64,000 nucleotides of DNA. Source: Candidatus Hodarchaeota archaeon. Its GTDB lineage: Archaea; Asgardarchaeota; Lokiarchaeia; Sigyniarchaeales; SOKP01. The DNA lies in the NCBI GenBank assembly GCA_048887225.1, contig JBHLJY010000003.1, forward strand, positions 1 through 64,000, given 5' to 3'. Made by a program: the position numbers and the translations under genes. Position 1 is the first letter of the stretch. Every line of letters begins with the position of its first letter. Under the pieces are notes generated by a model that worked only from the letters and a program-made list of their open reading frames with translations, was not told where the DNA came from and did no database searches. Shown one piece after another: positions 28,955-35,570 of the stretch.

Positions 28955-29635
28955 TTAATCAATTTCGTCAGGTTCTACTGCGATATGGCTTAAGAGGTAG
29001 TCAATTTGTTCTGCTTTTTTGTTAACATTGAGTACTGTGTGCAAGGAGATTACTTCATCTGCTCTTCCCGGCATTAATGTTATCGAACCAGCTCTTAAAA
29101 TGAAGAATTCAAATACATCAGGAATTTCCTTTTTAAGACGAAGACTCTTTACAGGAAATCGTTCAGCAGCAGCGAATATTCCTTTCTTATGGTAGAGCTC
29201 ATTACGTTCAACTAGCCAATAATCGAATAGAGCAGCAAGCCAGACAAAAAATAGAATAAGCAACAACATAAGTGTCATAGCCATGTAGAAATTTGCTGTA
29301 AGACCAGGATTCCAAGTTATATCTGCTAATGTTGGTATACCATAAGTTGGTATAATCCAAAATATTAGCAATAATATAAAAATTACAATTGCCAAAATTA
29401 GAATAAAGAATTTAGCAGAACCAAAGTCAAATGCTATAACGAATAGATTGCAAAACAATACAATAAGCCAGAAAATACCTAACCATTGTGCTGGTTGTTC
29501 GCCGATACCAAATTGAATAGGCCATAAAATTGCTGAAGTTAATAATAGAGGCCAAAGGAAAATTATTTTTGGATAAGATCTTAATTTAATTTCTGTAATT
29601 GGCTTTGTGGCTTTTTTCTTTTTTTCTGAAGACAT
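28955..29635 (-). CDS. Conserved-looking 4-TM membrane protein with soluble C-terminal domain
   Basis: YPKIIFLWP, four TMs, then KEIPDVFEFFILRAGSITL. Confidence 0.7.
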   Translation of the reverse strand: MSSEKKKKATKPITEIKLRSYPKIIFLWPLLLTSAILWPIQFGIGEQPAQWLGIFWLIVLFCNLFVIAFDFGSAKFFILILAIVIFILLLIFWIIPTYGIPTLADITWNPGLTANFYMAMTLMLLLILFFVWLAALFDYWLVERNELYHKKGIFAAAERFPVKSLRLKKEIPDVFEFFILRAGSITLMPGRADEVISLHTVLNVNKKAEQIDYLLSHIAVEPDEID

Positions 29636-29800: not shown

Positions 29801-30553
29801 TCAAAAAATTTGGCTTCCTATTGATAATACCATCCTTAAAGAAAACTCTATTTGTCGATTTCCATCATTACTAACACCCATATGACCAGGAAGGAGATAT
29901 TTAACGTCGAGATCATTTACAAATTTTATGGAATTTTGAAGCTTTTTTAAAGATCCTCCAGGAAAATCATATCTTCCAAAACTTCCGCCTGTAAAAACCA
30001 AATCTCCTGAAATTAAAATTTTTTTTGAAGATTCATAGTAGGAAATAGATCCTAATGAATGTCCTGGTGTATAATAAATTTGAAATGTAAAATCTGAAAA
30101 AACTGTAATCTCTTTCAAATTAGTTAAATCATTTATTTTTAGAGGGACAATTTTTACTCTAAAAATACTAGGGCTTATTCCAAGATTTCCAGGGCATATT
30201 TGGGATGTATCTCCTTTAGATAAGATTTTTGCTGTTTCTCCGTAAGCAAAAACTTCAGGAGGCTCGTCTTTCAGAATTTCCATTAATGGATACAACCCAA
30301 TTACGTGATCTATATGTTCGTGAGTTAGAAAAACTTTTGTTATATTATTATAATTAATATTTTGTTTTTTCATACCTTCAAGCAATGACTTGAATGATAG
30401 ACTATTTCCAGCGTCGAATAATGCAATTTCGTCAGTTTCTTGATCAATAATGCAATATTGATTGCAGTCTAACATTTGATTTTCTGAGAAGTAATATAAA
30501 TTTTTTAATACTTCTTTGCCTCTTTTTTCAGAACTGCTACTACTAAAAAACAT
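29801..30553 (-). CDS. MBL-fold metallo-hydrolase
   Basis: THEHIDH, TPGHS, SGDLVF, GRYDFPGGS, PGH. Confidence 0.93.
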   Translation of the reverse strand: MFFSSSSSEKRGKEVLKNLYYFSENQMLDCNQYCIIDQETDEIALFDAGNSLSFKSLLEGMKKQNINYNNITKVFLTHEHIDHVIGLYPLMEILKDEPPEVFAYGETAKILSKGDTSQICPGNLGISPSIFRVKIVPLKINDLTNLKEITVFSDFTFQIYYTPGHSLGSISYYESSKKILISGDLVFTGGSFGRYDFPGGSLKKLQNSIKFVNDLDVKYLLPGHMGVSNDGNRQIEFSLRMVLSIGSQIF

Positions 30554-30629: not shown

Positions 30630-31022
30630 ATGTCAAAAGAACCCAATATTGAGGATTTAAAATCCAAAATAGGTTTTGGAATAAAAGTATGGCTGGAATT
30701 TAAGGATGTTGAGAAAAAGAAGAATATTATGGGTTCTGGTTGGGCAAAATTATTAGAGAATATTAATAAAATTGAAGGTGGCTCTTTGACTCACGCTGCT
30801 CAAGAATGTGGTTATTCTTATAAATACGCTTGGAATATTTTAAAAAGAATTGAAAAAAGGACGGGTTTATCGCCTGTAATTACAGGTAAAGGAGGTAGTG
30901 GAGGAGGGGGTTGGATTAAATTAAATAAATGGGGTAAGTTATTACTAAGCACCTACAATAATTTACTATTTGAACTTGAAAAAATTGAAAAGAGACTTGG
31001 AGAGAGCTTTAAAATTAACTAA
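30630..31022 (+). CDS. ModE-family HTH regulator (no TOBE domain)
   Basis: KVWLE, GSLTHAAQECGYSYKYAW, GGSGGGG..LNKWGK. Confidence 0.88.
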   Translation: MSKEPNIEDLKSKIGFGIKVWLEFKDVEKKKNIMGSGWAKLLENINKIEGGSLTHAAQECGYSYKYAWNILKRIEKRTGLSPVITGKGGSGGGGWIKLNKWGKLLLSTYNNLLFELEKIEKRLGESFKIN

Positions 31023-31290
31023 TAAATATGTTTTAATTTCAATATCGTCTAGTTATTCATAATAATGGGAAGTTGATTGGATTAGTGCTACAGCCAGATA
31101 TCTTCAAGAAGCTATAAGAATTTTTAAAAGAATAATTTATATTTTAATAGAACAAATAATTATAAATAATTTTTAAATTGTAAAAGTAAAACAAATTTAA
31201 TTATGAATAATGTTATTATTTTAGGAATTATAAAGATTTAATAAGATTTGATCAAAAAAAATTATAAAAAAAATTGAGGCCGTAAACGGA

Positions 31291-32817
31291 ATGGCTTTCC
31301 CTCTTCCAGGAACACCCATTATACTTGATATTGGCAGTGCTTACGTTAAAATCGGTTTTGCTGGTGAACCCGCCCCCCGTTTCGTGTTTCCTTGTATCAC
31401 GGGTTATGAAAAATATAAATCAGTAATGGTTGATGTTGGTCAAAGGAGCGTCTATGTTGGAAATGATGCTATGAAAATGCGTGGCGTTCTTAAAGTGAAA
31501 TATCCCTTACAGAGAGGAGTAATTATGGATTGGGAAGAATATTATGAGATTTTAAATTACATTTTCTATACTTTACTTAGAATAGATAATCTTTCAAATT
31601 ATCCCGTTATGTATGCTGAACATCCATTTATGCCAAGAGAAACTAAAGAATATATCGCAAGAGTATTATTCGAAACTCATAGAGTTAGATCTTTAATAAT
31701 GTTGCAATCCCCATTTTTATCAATGTTTTCTGTCGGGATAACAACAGGCTTGGTCTTAGAGAGTGGTGATGGGGTAACTTGGATTGTTCCAATAGTTAAT
31801 GGTCAAATTTATCATCAAGCTATTCAAAAGTTAAATCTTGCTGGAATAGATGTTAATCATAATTTAAAATCGTTAATGATGAGAGAGGGAATCAACATTG
31901 AATCTTCGGCAGCAGACGAAATTTTAAAAGAAATAAAGGAAAAAAATTGTTATTTCGTAATAGATCCAAACAATCCGCCAGTCTCGAAGGATACTTATAC
32001 ATACCCAATGCCAGATGGCTCTGTTAAACAAATTCCCAATAATATTTTGCATCAAGCTCCTGAAATTATGTTTCAACCGGGAATGCTCGGGTATAATATG
32101 ATGAACATTCCACAAGCGATAATTTACTGTTTACAAATGATGGATAGCGCTTATTGGTATGACTTGTTATCTCATATTGTGCTTTCAGGCGGGAATCTTA
32201 TGTATAGCGGATTTGAAGAACGATTAAAACAAGAAGTAATAACAATTTTACCCCAATTAGGGAATATTCCTAGACCTCAAAGGCAACCAACTCTTAGTGA
32301 AAGCTACGACACCAGACTCGAAGCAATCGAAACAACCCAAAAAATACAAGATACATGTTCTAAATGTGGAGCATTAGTAGACTTATCTGATGGAAAAGAA
32401 TCATGTCCATTATGTGGGGCGAGTATGAAATTGCCCCAGCTATCCATAGATTTAGGTGGATCAGGTGATATGATATCCTCCTCTAAAAGAATTTGTCCTT
32501 TTTGTAATAAGGGGATTAAAGATGATTCTTCAATATTTTGTCCTTATTGTGGGAAAAATATCCAAATGGCAGATATATCAACGACTTCGGAAAAAATTAT
32601 GGAGGAAGCGATGACTGCTACAGAATTTAAGGCTGAATTTAACGCATCCGATGAAATTATTAAATTTTTAATTCCAGAAAATCTCCAATATGCTGTTTTT
32701 TATGGAGCATCTATCCTTGGAAGCCTTCCTAGTTTCCAGAATCTTTTCATTACTCACGAAGAATTCCAAGCTAACACAAATGTATTATATAGAGATATTT
32801 CAGATGTCTTTAGATAA
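31291..32817 (+). CDS. Actin-family protein with inserted double zinc ribbon
   Basis: ILDIGSAYVKIGFAGEPAPRFVFP, YVGNDA, LKVKYPLQRGVIMDWE, TTGLVLESGDGVT, IKEKNCY, APEIMFQP, IVLSGG, GASILGSL. Confidence 0.95.
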   Translation: MAFPLPGTPIILDIGSAYVKIGFAGEPAPRFVFPCITGYEKYKSVMVDVGQRSVYVGNDAMKMRGVLKVKYPLQRGVIMDWEEYYEILNYIFYTLLRIDNLSNYPVMYAEHPFMPRETKEYIARVLFETHRVRSLIMLQSPFLSMFSVGITTGLVLESGDGVTWIVPIVNGQIYHQAIQKLNLAGIDVNHNLKSLMMREGINIESSAADEILKEIKEKNCYFVIDPNNPPVSKDTYTYPMPDGSVKQIPNNILHQAPEIMFQPGMLGYNMMNIPQAIIYCLQMMDSAYWYDLLSHIVLSGGNLMYSGFEERLKQEVITILPQLGNIPRPQRQPTLSESYDTRLEAIETTQKIQDTCSKCGALVDLSDGKESCPLCGASMKLPQLSIDLGGSGDMISSSKRICPFCNKGIKDDSSIFCPYCGKNIQMADISTTSEKIMEEAMTATEFKAEFNASDEIIKFLIPENLQYAVFYGASILGSLPSFQNLFITHEEFQANTNVLYRDISDVFR

Positions 32818-32919
32818 TGAAGCAAATGGTTCTAAAATCATTAAATTTCGTTAATTTTTAATTTCAAGCTAAATTTAAAAATTTAAATTTAGTAAATCAA
32901 ACTAAGGTTAATAAATCAA

Positions 32920-34068
32920 TTGAAAACTTCAAAATTTCGAATCCTAACAGTTTTCATATTATTCCTTGTTATATCTTTAAGTTTATCTCCTTTTGTTCTT
33001 GCTCGCACACGAAAAACCTATTTAACTGATTTCCTTTTAGAAACTTATATTGATGATGAGGGATTTTCGAATTGTGATCGCGAAGAATATCGCGAAGATG
33101 GCGATGATGTGTCTTATGAAGCAACAGCTTATGCTCTAGAAATTCTTGGAGAATACAATTTATTAGAAAAGAAAGATCTGTTTGGAAAAGTTGAGGAATC
33201 TTACAATTCTTCAGATCTTCAAGAATATTTAGAAGAAAAACTCAATTCTATATATACTTCTGGTAATATAGATATATATAATACGTTTTATATTTTAAAA
33301 TCATTAGAAGAAATGGATTACGAGATAGCTGGAGCTTTGGCACTGCAAATCAAATCATATATTGATAGTACAGCACAGGCTGATGGTGGTTTTTCTGGTT
33401 CAAGTACATCTTCTTCATCTAATCTAATCTCAACTTATTTTGCTTTACAAATTTTAGATCTATTAGATCTACCAATACCAAATTCAAAAGCATTTATTAG
33501 CTCATGTAGTAATCCAGATGGGGGATATGGTGGTGATAGTACTTCTTCCTCAACTATTACTAATACTTACTACGCAATTTTAATCATGGATTTTTATGAT
33601 GATTTTGGTTCATTAGCATCTGAAGATTTGACAATTAAATATCTTAATTCATTTTTTGTAGATGATGAAAATGACGAAGATAATTACGGGGGATACTTAC
33701 CTGATCACAATGCTGAATATGCATTGCTTAGCAGTACATATATTTGTATAAAAGCAATCTCATTAATCGATGAGGATGAGTTTGGGGATAAAGATGATAC
33801 AGCACAATGGGTTATGAACCACCAAAATTTTCAAGACGGAGGTTTTGTCGATGAGAGTGATGGATACGATCAAAAATTTTCTTCAGTAATTAATACATTT
33901 TTTGCTTATGAGACATTGAAATTGCTTGGAAGAGAAGAATTATTAGAAGAAAAAGTATTCATGTTGGAATTTGAGTGGTATGATTGGATAATCTTTGTCA
34001 TTATATTGATCATCCTTGTAGCACTTGCCTTAGTAGGTATTAATATTTGGCGAAAAAGAAGATTATAA
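32920..34068 (+). CDS. Secreted, C-terminally anchored prenyltransferase/squalene-oxidase-repeat protein
   Basis: Signal peptide; repeats QADGGF, NPDGGY, NYGGY, QNFQDGGF each followed by TYxA helices; C-terminal TM plus WRKRRL. Confidence 0.8.
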   Translation: MKTSKFRILTVFILFLVISLSLSPFVLARTRKTYLTDFLLETYIDDEGFSNCDREEYREDGDDVSYEATAYALEILGEYNLLEKKDLFGKVEESYNSSDLQEYLEEKLNSIYTSGNIDIYNTFYILKSLEEMDYEIAGALALQIKSYIDSTAQADGGFSGSSTSSSSNLISTYFALQILDLLDLPIPNSKAFISSCSNPDGGYGGDSTSSSTITNTYYAILIMDFYDDFGSLASEDLTIKYLNSFFVDDENDEDNYGGYLPDHNAEYALLSSTYICIKAISLIDEDEFGDKDDTAQWVMNHQNFQDGGFVDESDGYDQKFSSVINTFFAYETLKLLGREELLEEKVFMLEFEWYDWIIFVIILIILVALALVGINIWRKRRL

Positions 34069-34154
34069 AACATTTTCTTTCCTTTTTATATTTATTCAAA
34101 ATATTAAATCTTTTTTATAGAAAGCTCTCAAATTTAATTAGTGAATTATTAATA

Positions 34155-35015
34155 ATGGAAAAGATACTTGAAGGAAAGAAATTAGCAGATAAATTAAATT
34201 TTAAATTAAAAGCTAAGATTGATGATATTGTAAAAAAAATAGGAACCCGACCGAAATTAGCTACTATTTTATTAGGAAAAGACCCTGCATCAAAAGTATA
34301 TGTGAATATTAAACATAAAACATGTACTAAAGTTGGTATTGAATCACATCTGGTTGAACTCAGTGAGGATACAAACAAGACAGAGTTATTAAACGAAATA
34401 GAAATACTAAATAATGATAATACTATCCATGGCATATTATTACAATTGCCTCTTCCAATGAAGCTTCGAGACTTTATACCTCATTTTCATGAAAAAATAT
34501 CTCCAATTAAAGATGTAGATGGATTTCATCCAATAAATAGAGGTAAACTCTTTGATTACAACGAGGAATTTGCGCCATGTACACCTAAGGGCATTATTGC
34601 TCTGTTAGAGAATTACAATATTGAGATAAAAGGAAAAGATGTCACTATAATAAATAGATCTAATCTAGTAGGAAAACCGTTAATATTTATGTTTTTAAAG
34701 AGAAACGCGACACCGTCTATCTGCCATACATCAACAAGGGATATTGGTCGTTATATAAAACAAGCAGATATATTGATTGTGGCCGTGGGTCGTCCAAATT
34801 TCATAACTGAAGAAAAAATTAAAAATGATGTTATCATTGTCGATGTAGGGATTAATAGAGTTGAAGGCAAATTAGTCGGGGATGTTGATTTTAAAGGCGT
34901 TTTTGAAAAGTGTGGAGCAATAACACCCGTACCAGGGGGTGTAGGACCTTTAACTGTAAGTTTTTTGCTTCGTAATACTTTCAGTGCGTTTAAAAAACAA
35001 TTAGATATAAATTAA
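34155..35015 (+). CDS. folD: Methylene-THF dehydrogenase/cyclohydrolase
   Basis: ILEGKKLA, YVNIK, GILLQLPLP, KDVDGFHP, PCTPKG, RSNLVGKP, DVGINR, TPVPGGVGPLT; start moved to ATG 34155. Confidence 0.96.
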   Translation: MEKILEGKKLADKLNFKLKAKIDDIVKKIGTRPKLATILLGKDPASKVYVNIKHKTCTKVGIESHLVELSEDTNKTELLNEIEILNNDNTIHGILLQLPLPMKLRDFIPHFHEKISPIKDVDGFHPINRGKLFDYNEEFAPCTPKGIIALLENYNIEIKGKDVTIINRSNLVGKPLIFMFLKRNATPSICHTSTRDIGRYIKQADILIVAVGRPNFITEEKIKNDVIIVDVGINRVEGKLVGDVDFKGVFEKCGAITPVPGGVGPLTVSFLLRNTFSAFKKQLDIN

Positions 35016-35117: not shown

Positions 35118-35570
35118 ATGGCAGTTTTAGAAGTTGGCATCAATATCGGAAACCGTAATATTCTTGAGATTCTCTATTACACATCATCAGACGTTTTAGA
35201 TCCAAATTTACGTGCTGGTTTTCTTTCCGCTTTGGAAAGTTTTACAACTGAGGTTTTTGGAGATGACATAAATGTAGTTTCATTAGCTTCTTTTAAGCTA
35301 GTTTGTTATTGTGAGATGATAGCGCTATCAGGGGAAGATAAAGACAATACCCAACCATTATTAGCATATGCCATAATAGAAAAAGAAACAGACTCAGAAA
35401 TTGTCAAACGACTTTTAAAAGAAATTATTCAAAATTTTTTAAATCAATATTCTGTTATAAATATTTTCGAAAAGAAAGGAAAATATTTTAGGAAGTTTGA
35501 AAGCAGTATCAATGATATACTTGGAGACCTTAGAATGAAAACGGAAGATCGATTCAAATCAATATTCTAA
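35118..35570 (+). CDS. Stand-alone longin-like domain protein
   Basis: DPNLRAGFLSALESFTTEVFGDDINVVSL; LLKEIIQNFLNQY. Confidence 0.75.
   Translation: MAVLEVGINIGNRNILEILYYTSSDVLDPNLRAGFLSALESFTTEVFGDDINVVSLASFKLVCYCEMIALSGEDKDNTQPLLAYAIIEKETDSEIVKRLLKEIIQNFLNQYSVINIFEKKGKYFRKFESSINDILGDLRMKTEDRFKSIF

What the first reader, a model, noticed from the sequence alone, without database searches (positions are those of the whole stretch)
31291..32817. Actin homologue with an internal double zinc-ribbon insertion and altered catalytic residues
Seen: a clear actin fold interrupted at about 32260-32655 (roughly 130 aa between ERLKQEV..LP and IKFLIPE..YAVFYGASIL) by CSKC..CPLC and CPFC..CPYC. Versus actin, Q137 is kept, H161 appears as W (GVTWIVP), H73 as R, and a D-loop-like segment is retained. 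Inference: an Arp-like specialised paralogue whose subdomain-3 insert could block or regulate polymerisation (capper/nucleator) or tether partners.
Basis: partly seen in the sequence, partly recalled or inferred. Interest (0 to 1): 0.78.

Follow-up and report, generated by a model that had tools for sequence, protein, structure and literature searches.

The report
Lokiarchaeal actin relative with zinc-ribbon insert
This is a real, conserved actin-like gene of one order of Loki-type Asgard archaea that has lost actin's ATP-splitting residues and carries two small zinc-binding modules on flexible tethers in a loop actin uses to stack into filaments; its job is untested and I found no paper describing the odd build.

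Summary
The 508-aa ORF at 31291-32817 (+) is intact. It is an actin fold (Pfam Actin 4.7e-72; AF2 core TM about 0.9 to actin) with a 134-aa insert (aa 323-456) replacing actin T324-K326 in subdomain 3. The insert is two Cys4 zinc ribbons on poorly conserved, low-confidence linkers.

It is not a chimera. Full-length orthologues occur throughout one order of Lokiarchaeia, including the cultured Ca. L. ossiferum (UYP44711.1) and P. syntrophicum MK-D1 (QEE17409.1). None was found in five sister-order genomes or in other Asgard classes.

One reader detail is wrong. Actin Q137 aligns to S140 (S/T in the family), not to the nearby Q139. So both water-positioning residues are replaced (H161 to W), while the nucleotide-binding loops are kept.

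The family is a clade apart from lokiactin and is moderately supported as sister to a second paralogue. The gene lies in a conserved co-directional cluster: ModE-like wHTH, this gene, a membrane-anchored alpha/alpha-toroid surface protein, FolD.

My best reading, which is inferred, is a hydrolysis-poor terminal or adaptor subunit that docks on lokiactin and tethers a partner.

This scan found the same family earlier on other genomes, with the same reading. No searchable paper describes the insert.

The parts
31291..32817 (+). Whole gene: 508-aa zinc-ribbon actin paralogue (P0001), stop codon included
   Evidence: ORF list. The N-terminus MAFPLPGTPIILDIGSAY matches the family consensus, so the start codon is right.
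31291..32256 (+). Actin core, aa 1-322 (subdomains 1, 2, 4 and most of 3)
   Evidence: Pfam Actin 9-322. phmmer to alpha-actin 8-322. AF2 pLDDT about 90. Foldseek TM about 0.9 normalised to actin.
31411..31446 (+). D-loop-like segment KYKSVMVDVGQR (aa 41-52)
   Evidence: Same length as actin 39-50. 7 of 12 residues are identical to the genome's lokiactin (KYESIMTDVEHR), and the segment is strongly conserved in the family.
31513..31515 (+). R75 at the actin H73 position
   Evidence: R in 69/69 relatives.
31708..31710 (+). S140 at the actin Q137 position (catalytic-water residue replaced)
   Evidence: HMMER alignment and MAFFT alignment. Family: S36, T31, A2.
31759..31782 (+). Phosphate-2 loop ESGDGVTW (aa 157-164): E157 at the D154 position, W164 at the H161 position
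   Evidence: E in 68/69. G159 and G161 are invariant. W in 65/69; H in L. ossiferum and S in Harpocratesius.
32254..32271 (+). Conserved anchor QLGNIP (aa 322-327) at the start of the insert
   Evidence: Conservation 0.8-1.0, with L323 and G324 invariant or nearly so. The anchor is kept even in the insert-less G195 copy.
32257..32658 (+). Insert, aa 323-456, replacing actin T324-K326
   Evidence: Split actin match. Mean conservation 0.53 against 0.745 for the core. Linkers 332-349, 383-399 and 426-453 have pLDDT below 50.
32347..32433 (+). Zinc ribbon 1 (aa 353-381; C356, C359, C372, C375)
   Evidence: DZR and A2L_zn_ribbon matches. pLDDT about 70. Present in every orthologue examined.
32488..32562 (+). 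Zinc ribbon 2 (aa 400-424; C402, C405, C417, C420)
   Evidence: Zn_ribbon_3 and Zn_Ribbon_1 matches at 399-424. Absent in L. ossiferum, two genomes of family f4 and P0126.
32617..32628 (+). Conserved A-x-E-F motif (aa 443-446) in the last linker
   Evidence: E445 and F446 are at least 90% conserved. The equivalents are AEEF, APEF and SEYGG in divergent orthologues, including single-ribbon ones.
32659..32814 (+). Actin C-terminal segment, aa 457-508 (strand beta15 onwards, cleft helix)
   Evidence: phmmer 457-501 to actin chain 329-374. pLDDT about 91.
30630..31022 (+). Conserved upstream neighbour: 130-aa ModE-like winged-helix protein
   Evidence: TIGR00637 ModE_repress 3.8e-13, below the curated cut-off. 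Co-directional and upstream in 26 of 31 loci.
32920..34068 (+). Conserved downstream neighbour: signal peptide + prenyltransferase-like alpha/alpha toroid + C-terminal TM + short basic tail (TTG start)
   Evidence: Pfam Prenyltrans 6.2e-18. Immediately downstream and co-directional in 29 of 31 loci, with a gap of 41-164 nt in 25 of them.
34155..35015 (+). FolD, last gene of the conserved cluster
   Evidence: THF_DHG_CYH_C 2.2e-63. Present downstream in 27 of 31 loci.

Best explanation
Shown: the gene encodes a cytoplasmic actin-fold protein that is neither lokiactin nor a plain duplicate of it. It keeps the nucleotide-binding loops: D13, G15 and K20; G159, D160 and G161; K216 and E217; G300 and G301. 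It has replaced both residues that position the attacking water in actin (Q137 to S/T, H161 to W), as well as H73 (to R). Into the alphaK/beta15 loop of subdomain 3 it has a conserved anchor (QLGxIP). After the anchor come one universal and one lineage-variable Cys4 zinc ribbon, strung on poorly conserved, apparently disordered linkers. The insert ends in a conserved acidic-aromatic motif (A-x-E-F). Inferred: it binds ATP but hydrolyses it poorly, so it acts as a stable structural subunit rather than a treadmilling one. It uses its well-conserved, lokiactin-like pointed-end face (D-loop, the 61-65 loop, the 241-247 turn) to dock onto lokiactin like an incoming subunit. Its own barbed-end subdomain-3 face is diverged and carries the insert at the 322-325 contact. 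This limits further subunit addition, so it terminates or anchors the filament. The tethered ribbons then hold a partner that is not yet identified. The conserved neighbour genes (a winged-helix protein and a surface membrane protein) are candidates for the same module.
For: Fold and insert. Catalytic substitutions with binding loops retained. Insert anatomy, with only the ligands and their neighbours, QLGxIP and AxEF conserved, and linkers at 0.2-0.4 conservation and pLDDT below 50. Order-wide conservation, including closed genomes of two cultured strains. Separate clade from lokiactin and much faster evolution: own to G188 path is 0.49 for this family against 0.008 for lokiactin. Face asymmetry in family conservation: D-loop 0.78, residues 61-65 0.98, residues 241-247 0.80, against SD3 283-294 0.60, 318-323 0.61 and W-loop 0.65, with a core mean of 0.745. 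Face asymmetry in identity to lokiactin: 0.49 on pointed-face sets and 0.21 on barbed non-cleft sets against 0.38 overall; only 92 of 5000 random sets were as low as the barbed value. The insert is a separable module: one genome has a duplicate nested in the clade with ribbons and linkers cleanly deleted. The L. ossiferum orthologue is transcribed; in the paper's RT-qPCR, Lokiactin transcripts were severalfold higher than those of the other three homologues (PMC9834061). From established knowledge of F-actin models, not tested here: residues 322-325 of subdomain 3 contact 243-245 of the next subunit along the strand.
Against: No experiment or complex prediction supports docking on lokiactin. 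The pointed-face enrichment is not significant (599 of 5000 random sets). The barbed-end hydrophobic cleft is itself highly conserved (0.89 and 0.81), which would also fit a protein that accepts a D-loop, such as a nucleator or polymer. The long flexible linkers could let the ribbons swing clear, so steric blocking is not established. The interface residue sets come from my knowledge of eukaryotic F-actin, not from a lokiactin filament model. I could not inspect model coordinates. The partner of the ribbons is unknown, and the surface protein's cytoplasmic tail is only 5-7 residues long.
Confidence: 0.35

Rival explanations
1. Filament-forming or copolymerising paralogue. It assembles on its own or intercalates into lokiactin filaments, and the flexible loop displays zinc ribbons along the filament surface as a recruitment platform.
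For: The D-loop, hydrophobic-plug region (0.73) and barbed-end cleft (0.81-0.89) are all conserved. The insert linkers are long and disordered enough to exit sideways. In actin, K326 and K328 next to the insertion site are surface-exposed (knowledge).
Against: Both hydrolysis residues are replaced. The subdomain-3 longitudinal contact regions are the least conserved and least lokiactin-like parts of the core. In L. ossiferum, Lokiactin transcripts were severalfold higher than those of the other actin homologues, and the filaments seen there were assigned to Lokiactin (PMC9834061).
Confidence: 0.22
2. Nucleator or pointed-end anchor. The protein offers its conserved barbed-end cleft as a template for the first lokiactin subunit, as Arp2/3 does, and the insert helps recruit monomers or an activator.
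For: The cleft is conserved. Orthologues in the MK-D1, L. ossiferum and Harpocratesius branch carry a near-invariant basic-then-acidic motif, KLDRKEKKLLKKTSVSEKEL..VESEYGG. Its LKKT core and acidic-aromatic tail resemble WH2 and VCA elements (the resemblance is from memory). The acidic-aromatic part is universal in the family.
Against: The LKKT-like motif is absent from this window's protein and from the rest of its GTDB family. No Pfam WH2 or thymosin match appeared even at E up to 10. AF2 gives helices there, but with pLDDT below 50. The insert sits on the very face that would have to template growth.
Confidence: 0.13
3. Non-cytoskeletal Arp. It is an ATP-locked scaffold in a complex unrelated to filaments, comparable to nuclear Arp4 and Arp8, with zinc ribbons binding nucleic acid or protein, possibly together with the adjacent winged-helix protein.
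For: The hydrolysis residues are lost. A co-directional ModE-like wHTH gene is conserved upstream in 26 of 31 loci, with a gap of only 48-91 nt in five family-f3 loci that include MK-D1, Harpocratesius and L. ossiferum. Zinc ribbons often bind nucleic acids (knowledge).
Against: No centromere-like repeats occur in the spacer. The wHTH may simply regulate the cluster. The strongly conserved D-loop and 61-65 loop are hard to explain without an actin-type contact.
Confidence: 0.15
4. Artefact or decaying gene: an assembly chimera, an intein-like or mobile insertion, or a pseudogene.
For: None beyond the unusual architecture.
Against: The architecture is the same in at least 120 clusters and in closed genomes. 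The ORF is intact. The ligand cysteines are invariant. The insert matches only zinc-ribbon families in Pfam, with no intein family among the matches listed.
Confidence: 0.01

Closest known systems
Ca. Lokiarchaeum ossiferum actin homologue UYP44711.1 (NEF87_000996), one of three unnamed 'ARPs' in Rodrigues-Oliveira et al. 2022 (PMC9834061)
   Same: It is the orthologue: same clade, same insertion site, same gene cluster, and S at the Q137 position. In the paper it was placed among ARPs in the actin tree and its transcription was assayed by RT-qPCR.
   Different: Identity is 38%. It has only ribbon 1, followed by a charged KLSRKEKKLIKKT... segment. It keeps H at the H161 position. The paper's main text does not mention zinc, and none of its few uses of 'insert' concerns these proteins; the ARP accession does not occur in its supplements.
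Lokiactin (the conserved Asgard actin; this genome's copy is at G000:C5:137638-138750)
   Same: Same fold, a similar D-loop, and the same nucleotide-binding loops.
   Different: Lokiactin keeps Q137, H161 and H73, has no insert, is 381 aa long, scores 440 bits against Pfam Actin compared with 219+21 here, and evolves far more slowly. Core identity is 39%.
Eukaryotic Arp3 (insert in the alphaK/beta15 loop) and the Arp2/3 logic
   Same: Both are actin-related proteins with an insertion in what I recall to be the same loop between helix alphaK and strand beta15. Arp inserts are known to carry complex-specific functions (stated generally in PMC4947185).
   Different: The Arp3 insert is short and contains no zinc ribbon. 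Arp3 keeps the Q137 and H161 equivalents (memory). The primary paper (Liu et al. 2013) could not be read. No orthology to Arp3 was shown.
Dynactin Arp11 (Actr10) with p62
   Same: This is a functional analogy only: a dedicated actin-related protein that ends a short filament and links it to other subunits, one of which is cysteine-rich (knowledge, not tested).
   Different: Arp11 caps the pointed end. Its zinc-binding partner is a separate polypeptide. There is no evidence of common descent.
Pfam DZR / Zn_ribbon_3 / Zn_Ribbon_1 prokaryotic zinc ribbons
   Same: The insert matches these models above or near their cut-offs, and its ESM-Atlas look-alikes are DZR clusters.
   Different: Those are mostly free-standing or terminal modules of unknown function. 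Here they are internal to an actin fold.

Membership tests
Actin family (Pfam PF00022) | Sequence match over the whole fold, above the curated cut-off | tested here: met
   243 bits against a cut-off of 27, in two pieces flanking the insert. phmmer to actin chains gives 2e-70.
Actin family (Pfam PF00022) | Four-subdomain actin fold | tested here: met
   AF2 core pLDDT is about 90. Foldseek to actins gives a TM of 0.88-0.92 normalised to the target.
Actin family (Pfam PF00022) | Phosphate-1, phosphate-2 and adenosine motifs for nucleotide binding | tested here: met
   D13, G15, K20, G159, G161, G300 and G301 are invariant. D160, K216 and E217 are at least 90% conserved. Binding itself is not testable with these tools.
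Lokiactin orthologous group | Falls in the lokiactin clade | tested here: not met
   The lokiactin clade (SH-aLRT 100) excludes it, and it forms its own clade (SH-aLRT 99). The genome has a separate lokiactin.
Lokiactin orthologous group | Retains the catalytic Q137 and H161, and H73 | tested here: not met
   The residues at these positions are S140, W164 and R75.
Eukaryotic Arp families (Arp1-Arp10) | Orthology to a named eukaryotic Arp clade | tested here: inconclusive
   In my trees it groups with Asgard paralogue B (SH-aLRT 90), not inside the eukaryote-like representatives, which include sequences with centractin-like N-termini. However, those representatives carry no names, and I could not obtain labelled Arp sequences. 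The published tree places the L. ossiferum orthologue loosely 'with ARPs'. JGI's 'centractin' label is an automatic name.
Double zinc ribbon (PF12773 DZR; PF13248) | Two CxxC...CxxC units that match the models | tested here: met
   DZR scores 28.4 bits (cut-off 27.3) and Zn_ribbon_3 scores 29.1 bits (cut-off 27). The eight Cys are invariant in 69 sequences.
Double zinc ribbon (PF12773 DZR; PF13248) | Zinc actually bound | not testable with these tools
   This needs metal analysis of purified protein.
WH2 / beta-thymosin actin-monomer-binding motif (considered for the LKKT-like motif of the MK-D1 branch) | Match to the WH2 or thymosin profile | tested here: not met
   There was no Pfam hit at E up to 10 for P0278:425-505 and no PDB sequence hit. 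The motif is absent from this window's protein.
ParM-type (type II) partition system | Actin-like ATPase with an adjacent DNA-binding adaptor and centromere repeats | tested here: not met
   An adjacent wHTH gene is present. However, there are no iterons in the 268-nt spacer, the locus is chromosomal and conserved across a whole order, and the protein is eukaryote-type actin rather than ParM-like.

The most novel reading that the evidence does not exclude
Asgard archaea of the Lokiarchaeum/Promethearchaeum order possess a dedicated, hydrolysis-dead actin-related protein that caps, anchors or seeds lokiactin filaments. It couples the filament end to another cellular structure through built-in tethered zinc ribbons. 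It is encoded in one conserved module with a winged-helix protein and a surface-exposed membrane protein. That would make Arp-based control of filament ends an archaeal invention, independent of Arp2/3 and dynactin.
Probability: 0.25. Interest if true: 0.85.

Novelty: new variant of a known kind. Interest (0 to 1): 0.6.

Why it matters
[quoted passage not shown] The accompanying 'ARPs' are listed in papers without any described function.

This family gives one of those ARPs a concrete and testable anatomy:
- an ATP-binding but probably hydrolysis-poor actin fold;
- a conserved D-loop;
- a modular zinc-ribbon tether at a filament-contact loop;
- a conserved gene neighbourhood.

It is present in both cultured strains (L. 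ossiferum and P. syntrophicum MK-D1), so antibodies, pull-downs and in vitro assays with lokiactin are feasible now. If it acts on filament ends, it would show that regulating actin with actin-related proteins predates, or arose in parallel with, the eukaryotic Arp systems. If it acts elsewhere, it would be an archaeal counterpart of the non-cytoskeletal Arps.

Tried and rejected
- Assembly chimera: rejected. The architecture is the same in at least 120 clusters, in 134/134 genomes of the GTDB family (most of them full-length), and in closed genomes.
- Intein or mobile insert: rejected. The insert matches only zinc-ribbon families in Pfam, and the insert is conserved in place.
- ParMRC-like system: I looked for centromere-like direct repeats in the 268-nt spacer between the wHTH gene and this gene and found only AT-rich chance matches.
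- WH2 or thymosin identity of the LKKT-like motif in MK-D1-type orthologues: no profile or PDB support, and AF2 confidence there is low.
- Sequence search of the insert against PDB: only chance-level zinc-finger hits, with E of 0.2 or worse.
- ESM-Atlas look-alikes of the ribbons: generic DZR clusters scoring 0.76-0.81, which is within the range of shuffled controls.
- Zn-ribbon actin in sister orders of the same class: not found in five genomes using the Pfam Actin model and the insert plus C-terminus as queries.
- Docking the model into F-actin: not possible, because model coordinates are not exposed and no multimer prediction is available.
- Liu et al. 2013 on Arp3 inserts: the paper is not held.
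- Literature searches by architecture, by accession and by topic found no description. The library lacks most subscription journals, so this is not proof that no description exists.
Full report
**1. Observation**

The window (about 30% G+C) holds one uninterrupted ORF at 31291-32817 on the + strand, 508 aa long.

Pfam finds Actin (4.7e-72) in two pieces. Between them it finds Zn_ribbon_3 (29.1 bits, cut-off 27) and DZR (28.4 bits, cut-off 27.3).

phmmer against all PDB chains gives alpha-actin at 2e-70. Residues 8-322 align to chain 8-325, and residues 457-501 align to chain 329-374. So a 134-aa insert (aa 323-456, nt 32257-32658) replaces actin T324-K326, in the loop between helix 308-320 and strand 328-332 of subdomain 3.

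They do not hold for Q137:
- In the HMMER alignment and in an independent MAFFT alignment, Q137 pairs with S140.
- D154 is E157.

**2. It is a real, conserved gene**

A word-indexed search of 5.8 billion proteins returned 398 hits. The best 120 clusters are all about 500-517 aa, at least 59% identical, and carry Actin plus DZR.

An exhaustive HMMER scan of 1.84 billion representatives shows only a handful of 50%-identity clusters with this build: P0121, P0122, P0123, P0125, P0127 and a one-ribbon form, P0126. After these come ordinary actin-like proteins at 37% identity or less.

In 400 Asgard species genomes the distribution was as follows:

| Group | Result |
|---|---|
| The window's GTDB family | A match in 134/134 genomes; full-length matches at 53-100% identity in most of them |
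| The other three families of the same order | Divergent orthologues at 38-48% identity |
| All other orders and classes | Only about 1e-70 hits to plain-length actins |

Five genomes of sister orders, searched with the Pfam Actin model and with the insert plus C-terminus, have lokiactin and other long actin-domain ORFs but no zinc-ribbon actin.

Exact look-ups identify three orthologues:
- UYP44711.1 in Ca. Lokiarchaeum ossiferum;
- QEE17409.1 in Promethearchaeum syntrophicum MK-D1;
- one in Ca. Harpocratesius repetitus.

**3. Anatomy**

In a 69-member alignment all eight cysteines are invariant. So are D13, G15, K20, G159, G161, G300 and G301.

AF2 with that alignment gives mean pLDDT 78.9:
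- The actin core is at about 90.
- The two ribbons (350-382 and 400-425) are at about 70.
- Three linkers (332-349, 383-399, 426-453) are below 50.

Foldseek matches actins, with a TM of about 0.9 normalised to the target.

Weighted conservation is 0.745 for the core and 0.53 for the insert. Within the insert, only these parts are conserved:
- the zinc ligands and their neighbours;
- an anchor QLGxIP (322-327);
- an A-x-E-F motif (443-446).

Ribbon 1 is universal. Ribbon 2 is missing in L. ossiferum, in two genomes of family f4, and in P0126.

One genome (G195) has, besides a normal copy, a fast-evolving 385-aa duplicate nested inside the clade. Its ribbons and linkers are cleanly deleted, while PQLGVIP and the downstream flank remain. 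The insert is therefore a separable module.

**4. Paralogy**

The genome has four actin homologues: lokiactin (440 bits), B (285 bits), this one (219+21 bits) and D (160 bits). The same set recurs in relatives.

In a quick IQ-TREE (LG+G4, with the insert columns dropped), each paralogue is a clade with SH-aLRT 99-100. This family is sister to B with moderate support (90), and lokiactin groups with eukaryote-like actins.

Between the same two genomes, the path length is 0.008 for lokiactin and 0.49 for this family.

Only lokiactin keeps Q137 and H161. B has D and R at those positions; D has E and Y.

**5. Neighbourhood**

Across 31 loci spanning the order, the genes lie co-directionally in this order: ModE-like wHTH, this gene, surface protein, FolD.
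- The surface protein has a signal peptide, a prenyltransferase-like alpha/alpha toroid (6.2e-18), one C-terminal TM and a basic tail of 5-7 residues.
- It follows this gene in 29 of 31 loci, with a gap of 41-164 nt in 25 of them.
- The wHTH (TIGR00637 3.8e-13, below the curated cut-off) is upstream in 26 of 31 loci. It sits 48-91 nt away in five family-f3 loci, which include MK-D1, Harpocratesius and L. ossiferum, and 268 nt away in this window.
- No iterons occur in the spacer.
- A T-run after the stop codon means that co-transcription with the surface-protein gene is not established.

**6. Mechanism (inferred)**

With the binding loops retained and both water-positioning residues lost, the protein probably binds ATP but hydrolyses it poorly.

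Using interface residue sets that I know from eukaryotic F-actin models, the two faces differ:

| Residue set | Family conservation (core mean 0.745) |
|---|---|
| D-loop (pointed face) | 0.78 |
| 61-65 (pointed face) | 0.98 |
| 241-247 (pointed face) | 0.80 |
| SD3 283-294 (barbed face) | 0.60 |
| SD3 318-323 (barbed face) | 0.61 |
| W-loop (barbed face) | 0.65 |
| Hydrophobic cleft (barbed face) | 0.81-0.89 |

Identity to the genome's lokiactin is 0.49 on the pointed sets. That is not significant: 599 of 5000 random sets were as high. It is 0.21 on the barbed non-cleft sets, where only 92 of 5000 random sets were as low. The overall value is 0.38.

Together with the insert sitting at the 322-325 contact, this leans towards a subunit that docks on lokiactin by its pointed face and does not propagate the filament. 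That would make it a cap or anchor whose ribbons hold a partner.

The conserved cleft and the flexible linkers keep polymer and nucleator readings alive. The wHTH neighbour keeps a non-cytoskeletal reading alive.

**7. Comparison and novelty**

The L. ossiferum orthologue appears in Rodrigues-Oliveira et al. 2022 as one of three ARPs. It was placed in their tree and assayed by RT-qPCR, where Lokiactin transcripts were severalfold higher. The main text never mentions zinc, and none of its few uses of 'insert' concerns these proteins. The ARP accession does not occur in the supplements.

Searches by architecture, topic and accession found nothing further. Database names are generic: 'zinc ribbon domain-containing protein', 'actin-related protein', 'centractin' and 'rod shape-determining protein'.

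Earlier agents of this scan reached the same reading on other genomes. I had derived the Q137 correction and the neighbour gene before reading their notes.

I class this as a new variant of a known kind: an Asgard actin-related protein with an undescribed internal zinc-ribbon module.

Noticed in passing
L012:5267-5374 (P. syntrophicum MK-D1 orthologue QEE17409.1, aa 440-475); also L006 and L007: Orthologues of the MK-D1, L. ossiferum and Harpocratesius branch carry a near-invariant motif, KLDRKEKKLLKKTSVSEKEL..VESEYGG, in the last linker of the insert. It is a basic LKKT-like stretch followed by an acidic-aromatic stretch. It resembles WH2 and VCA elements by eye. It has no Pfam or PDB support, and AF2 gives low-confidence helices there. 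The motif is absent from this window's protein.
   Followed up: partly
L006:3968-5467 (Ca. L. ossiferum UYP44711.1): The orthologue in this cultured strain has only the first zinc ribbon and keeps His at the H161 position. Results from that strain may therefore not transfer fully to two-ribbon forms such as this one.
   Followed up: partly
L057:1312-2469 (-) (genome G195): This is a 385-aa extra copy nested inside the zinc-ribbon clade. Its ribbons and linkers are cleanly deleted, its D-loop is shortened, and it has F at the H161 position. It is in effect a natural insert-less derivative, on a long branch.
   Followed up: partly
window 30630-35015: A conserved, co-directional four-gene cluster (ModE-like wHTH, zinc-ribbon actin, membrane-anchored alpha/alpha-toroid surface protein with a TTG start, FolD) is kept across the whole order, even where the actin is only 34-38% identical.
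   Followed up: yes
G000:C9:34808-35896 (L002) and G000:C3:172945-174063 (L004): The genome's other two non-lokiactin paralogues also lack the catalytic pair. B has D and R, and D has E and Y, at the Q137 and H161 positions. Only lokiactin looks hydrolysis-competent.
   Followed up: partly
G123:C314:3917-5044, G126:C168:13385-14515, G127:C190:964-2094 (sister orders): Sister orders of the same class lack the zinc-ribbon actin. They do have actin-domain matches inside open frames of 715-861 aa, which suggests other fused actin-related architectures.
   Followed up: no
window 35118-35570 (+): This 150-aa ORF has no Pfam or NCBIfam hit. It is conserved just downstream of FolD in three related genomes at 67-73% identity.
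   Followed up: no
window 28955-29635 (-): This 226-aa multi-pass membrane protein has no family match. It is conserved near the cluster, next to a metallo-beta-lactamase-fold gene at 29801-30553.
   Followed up: no
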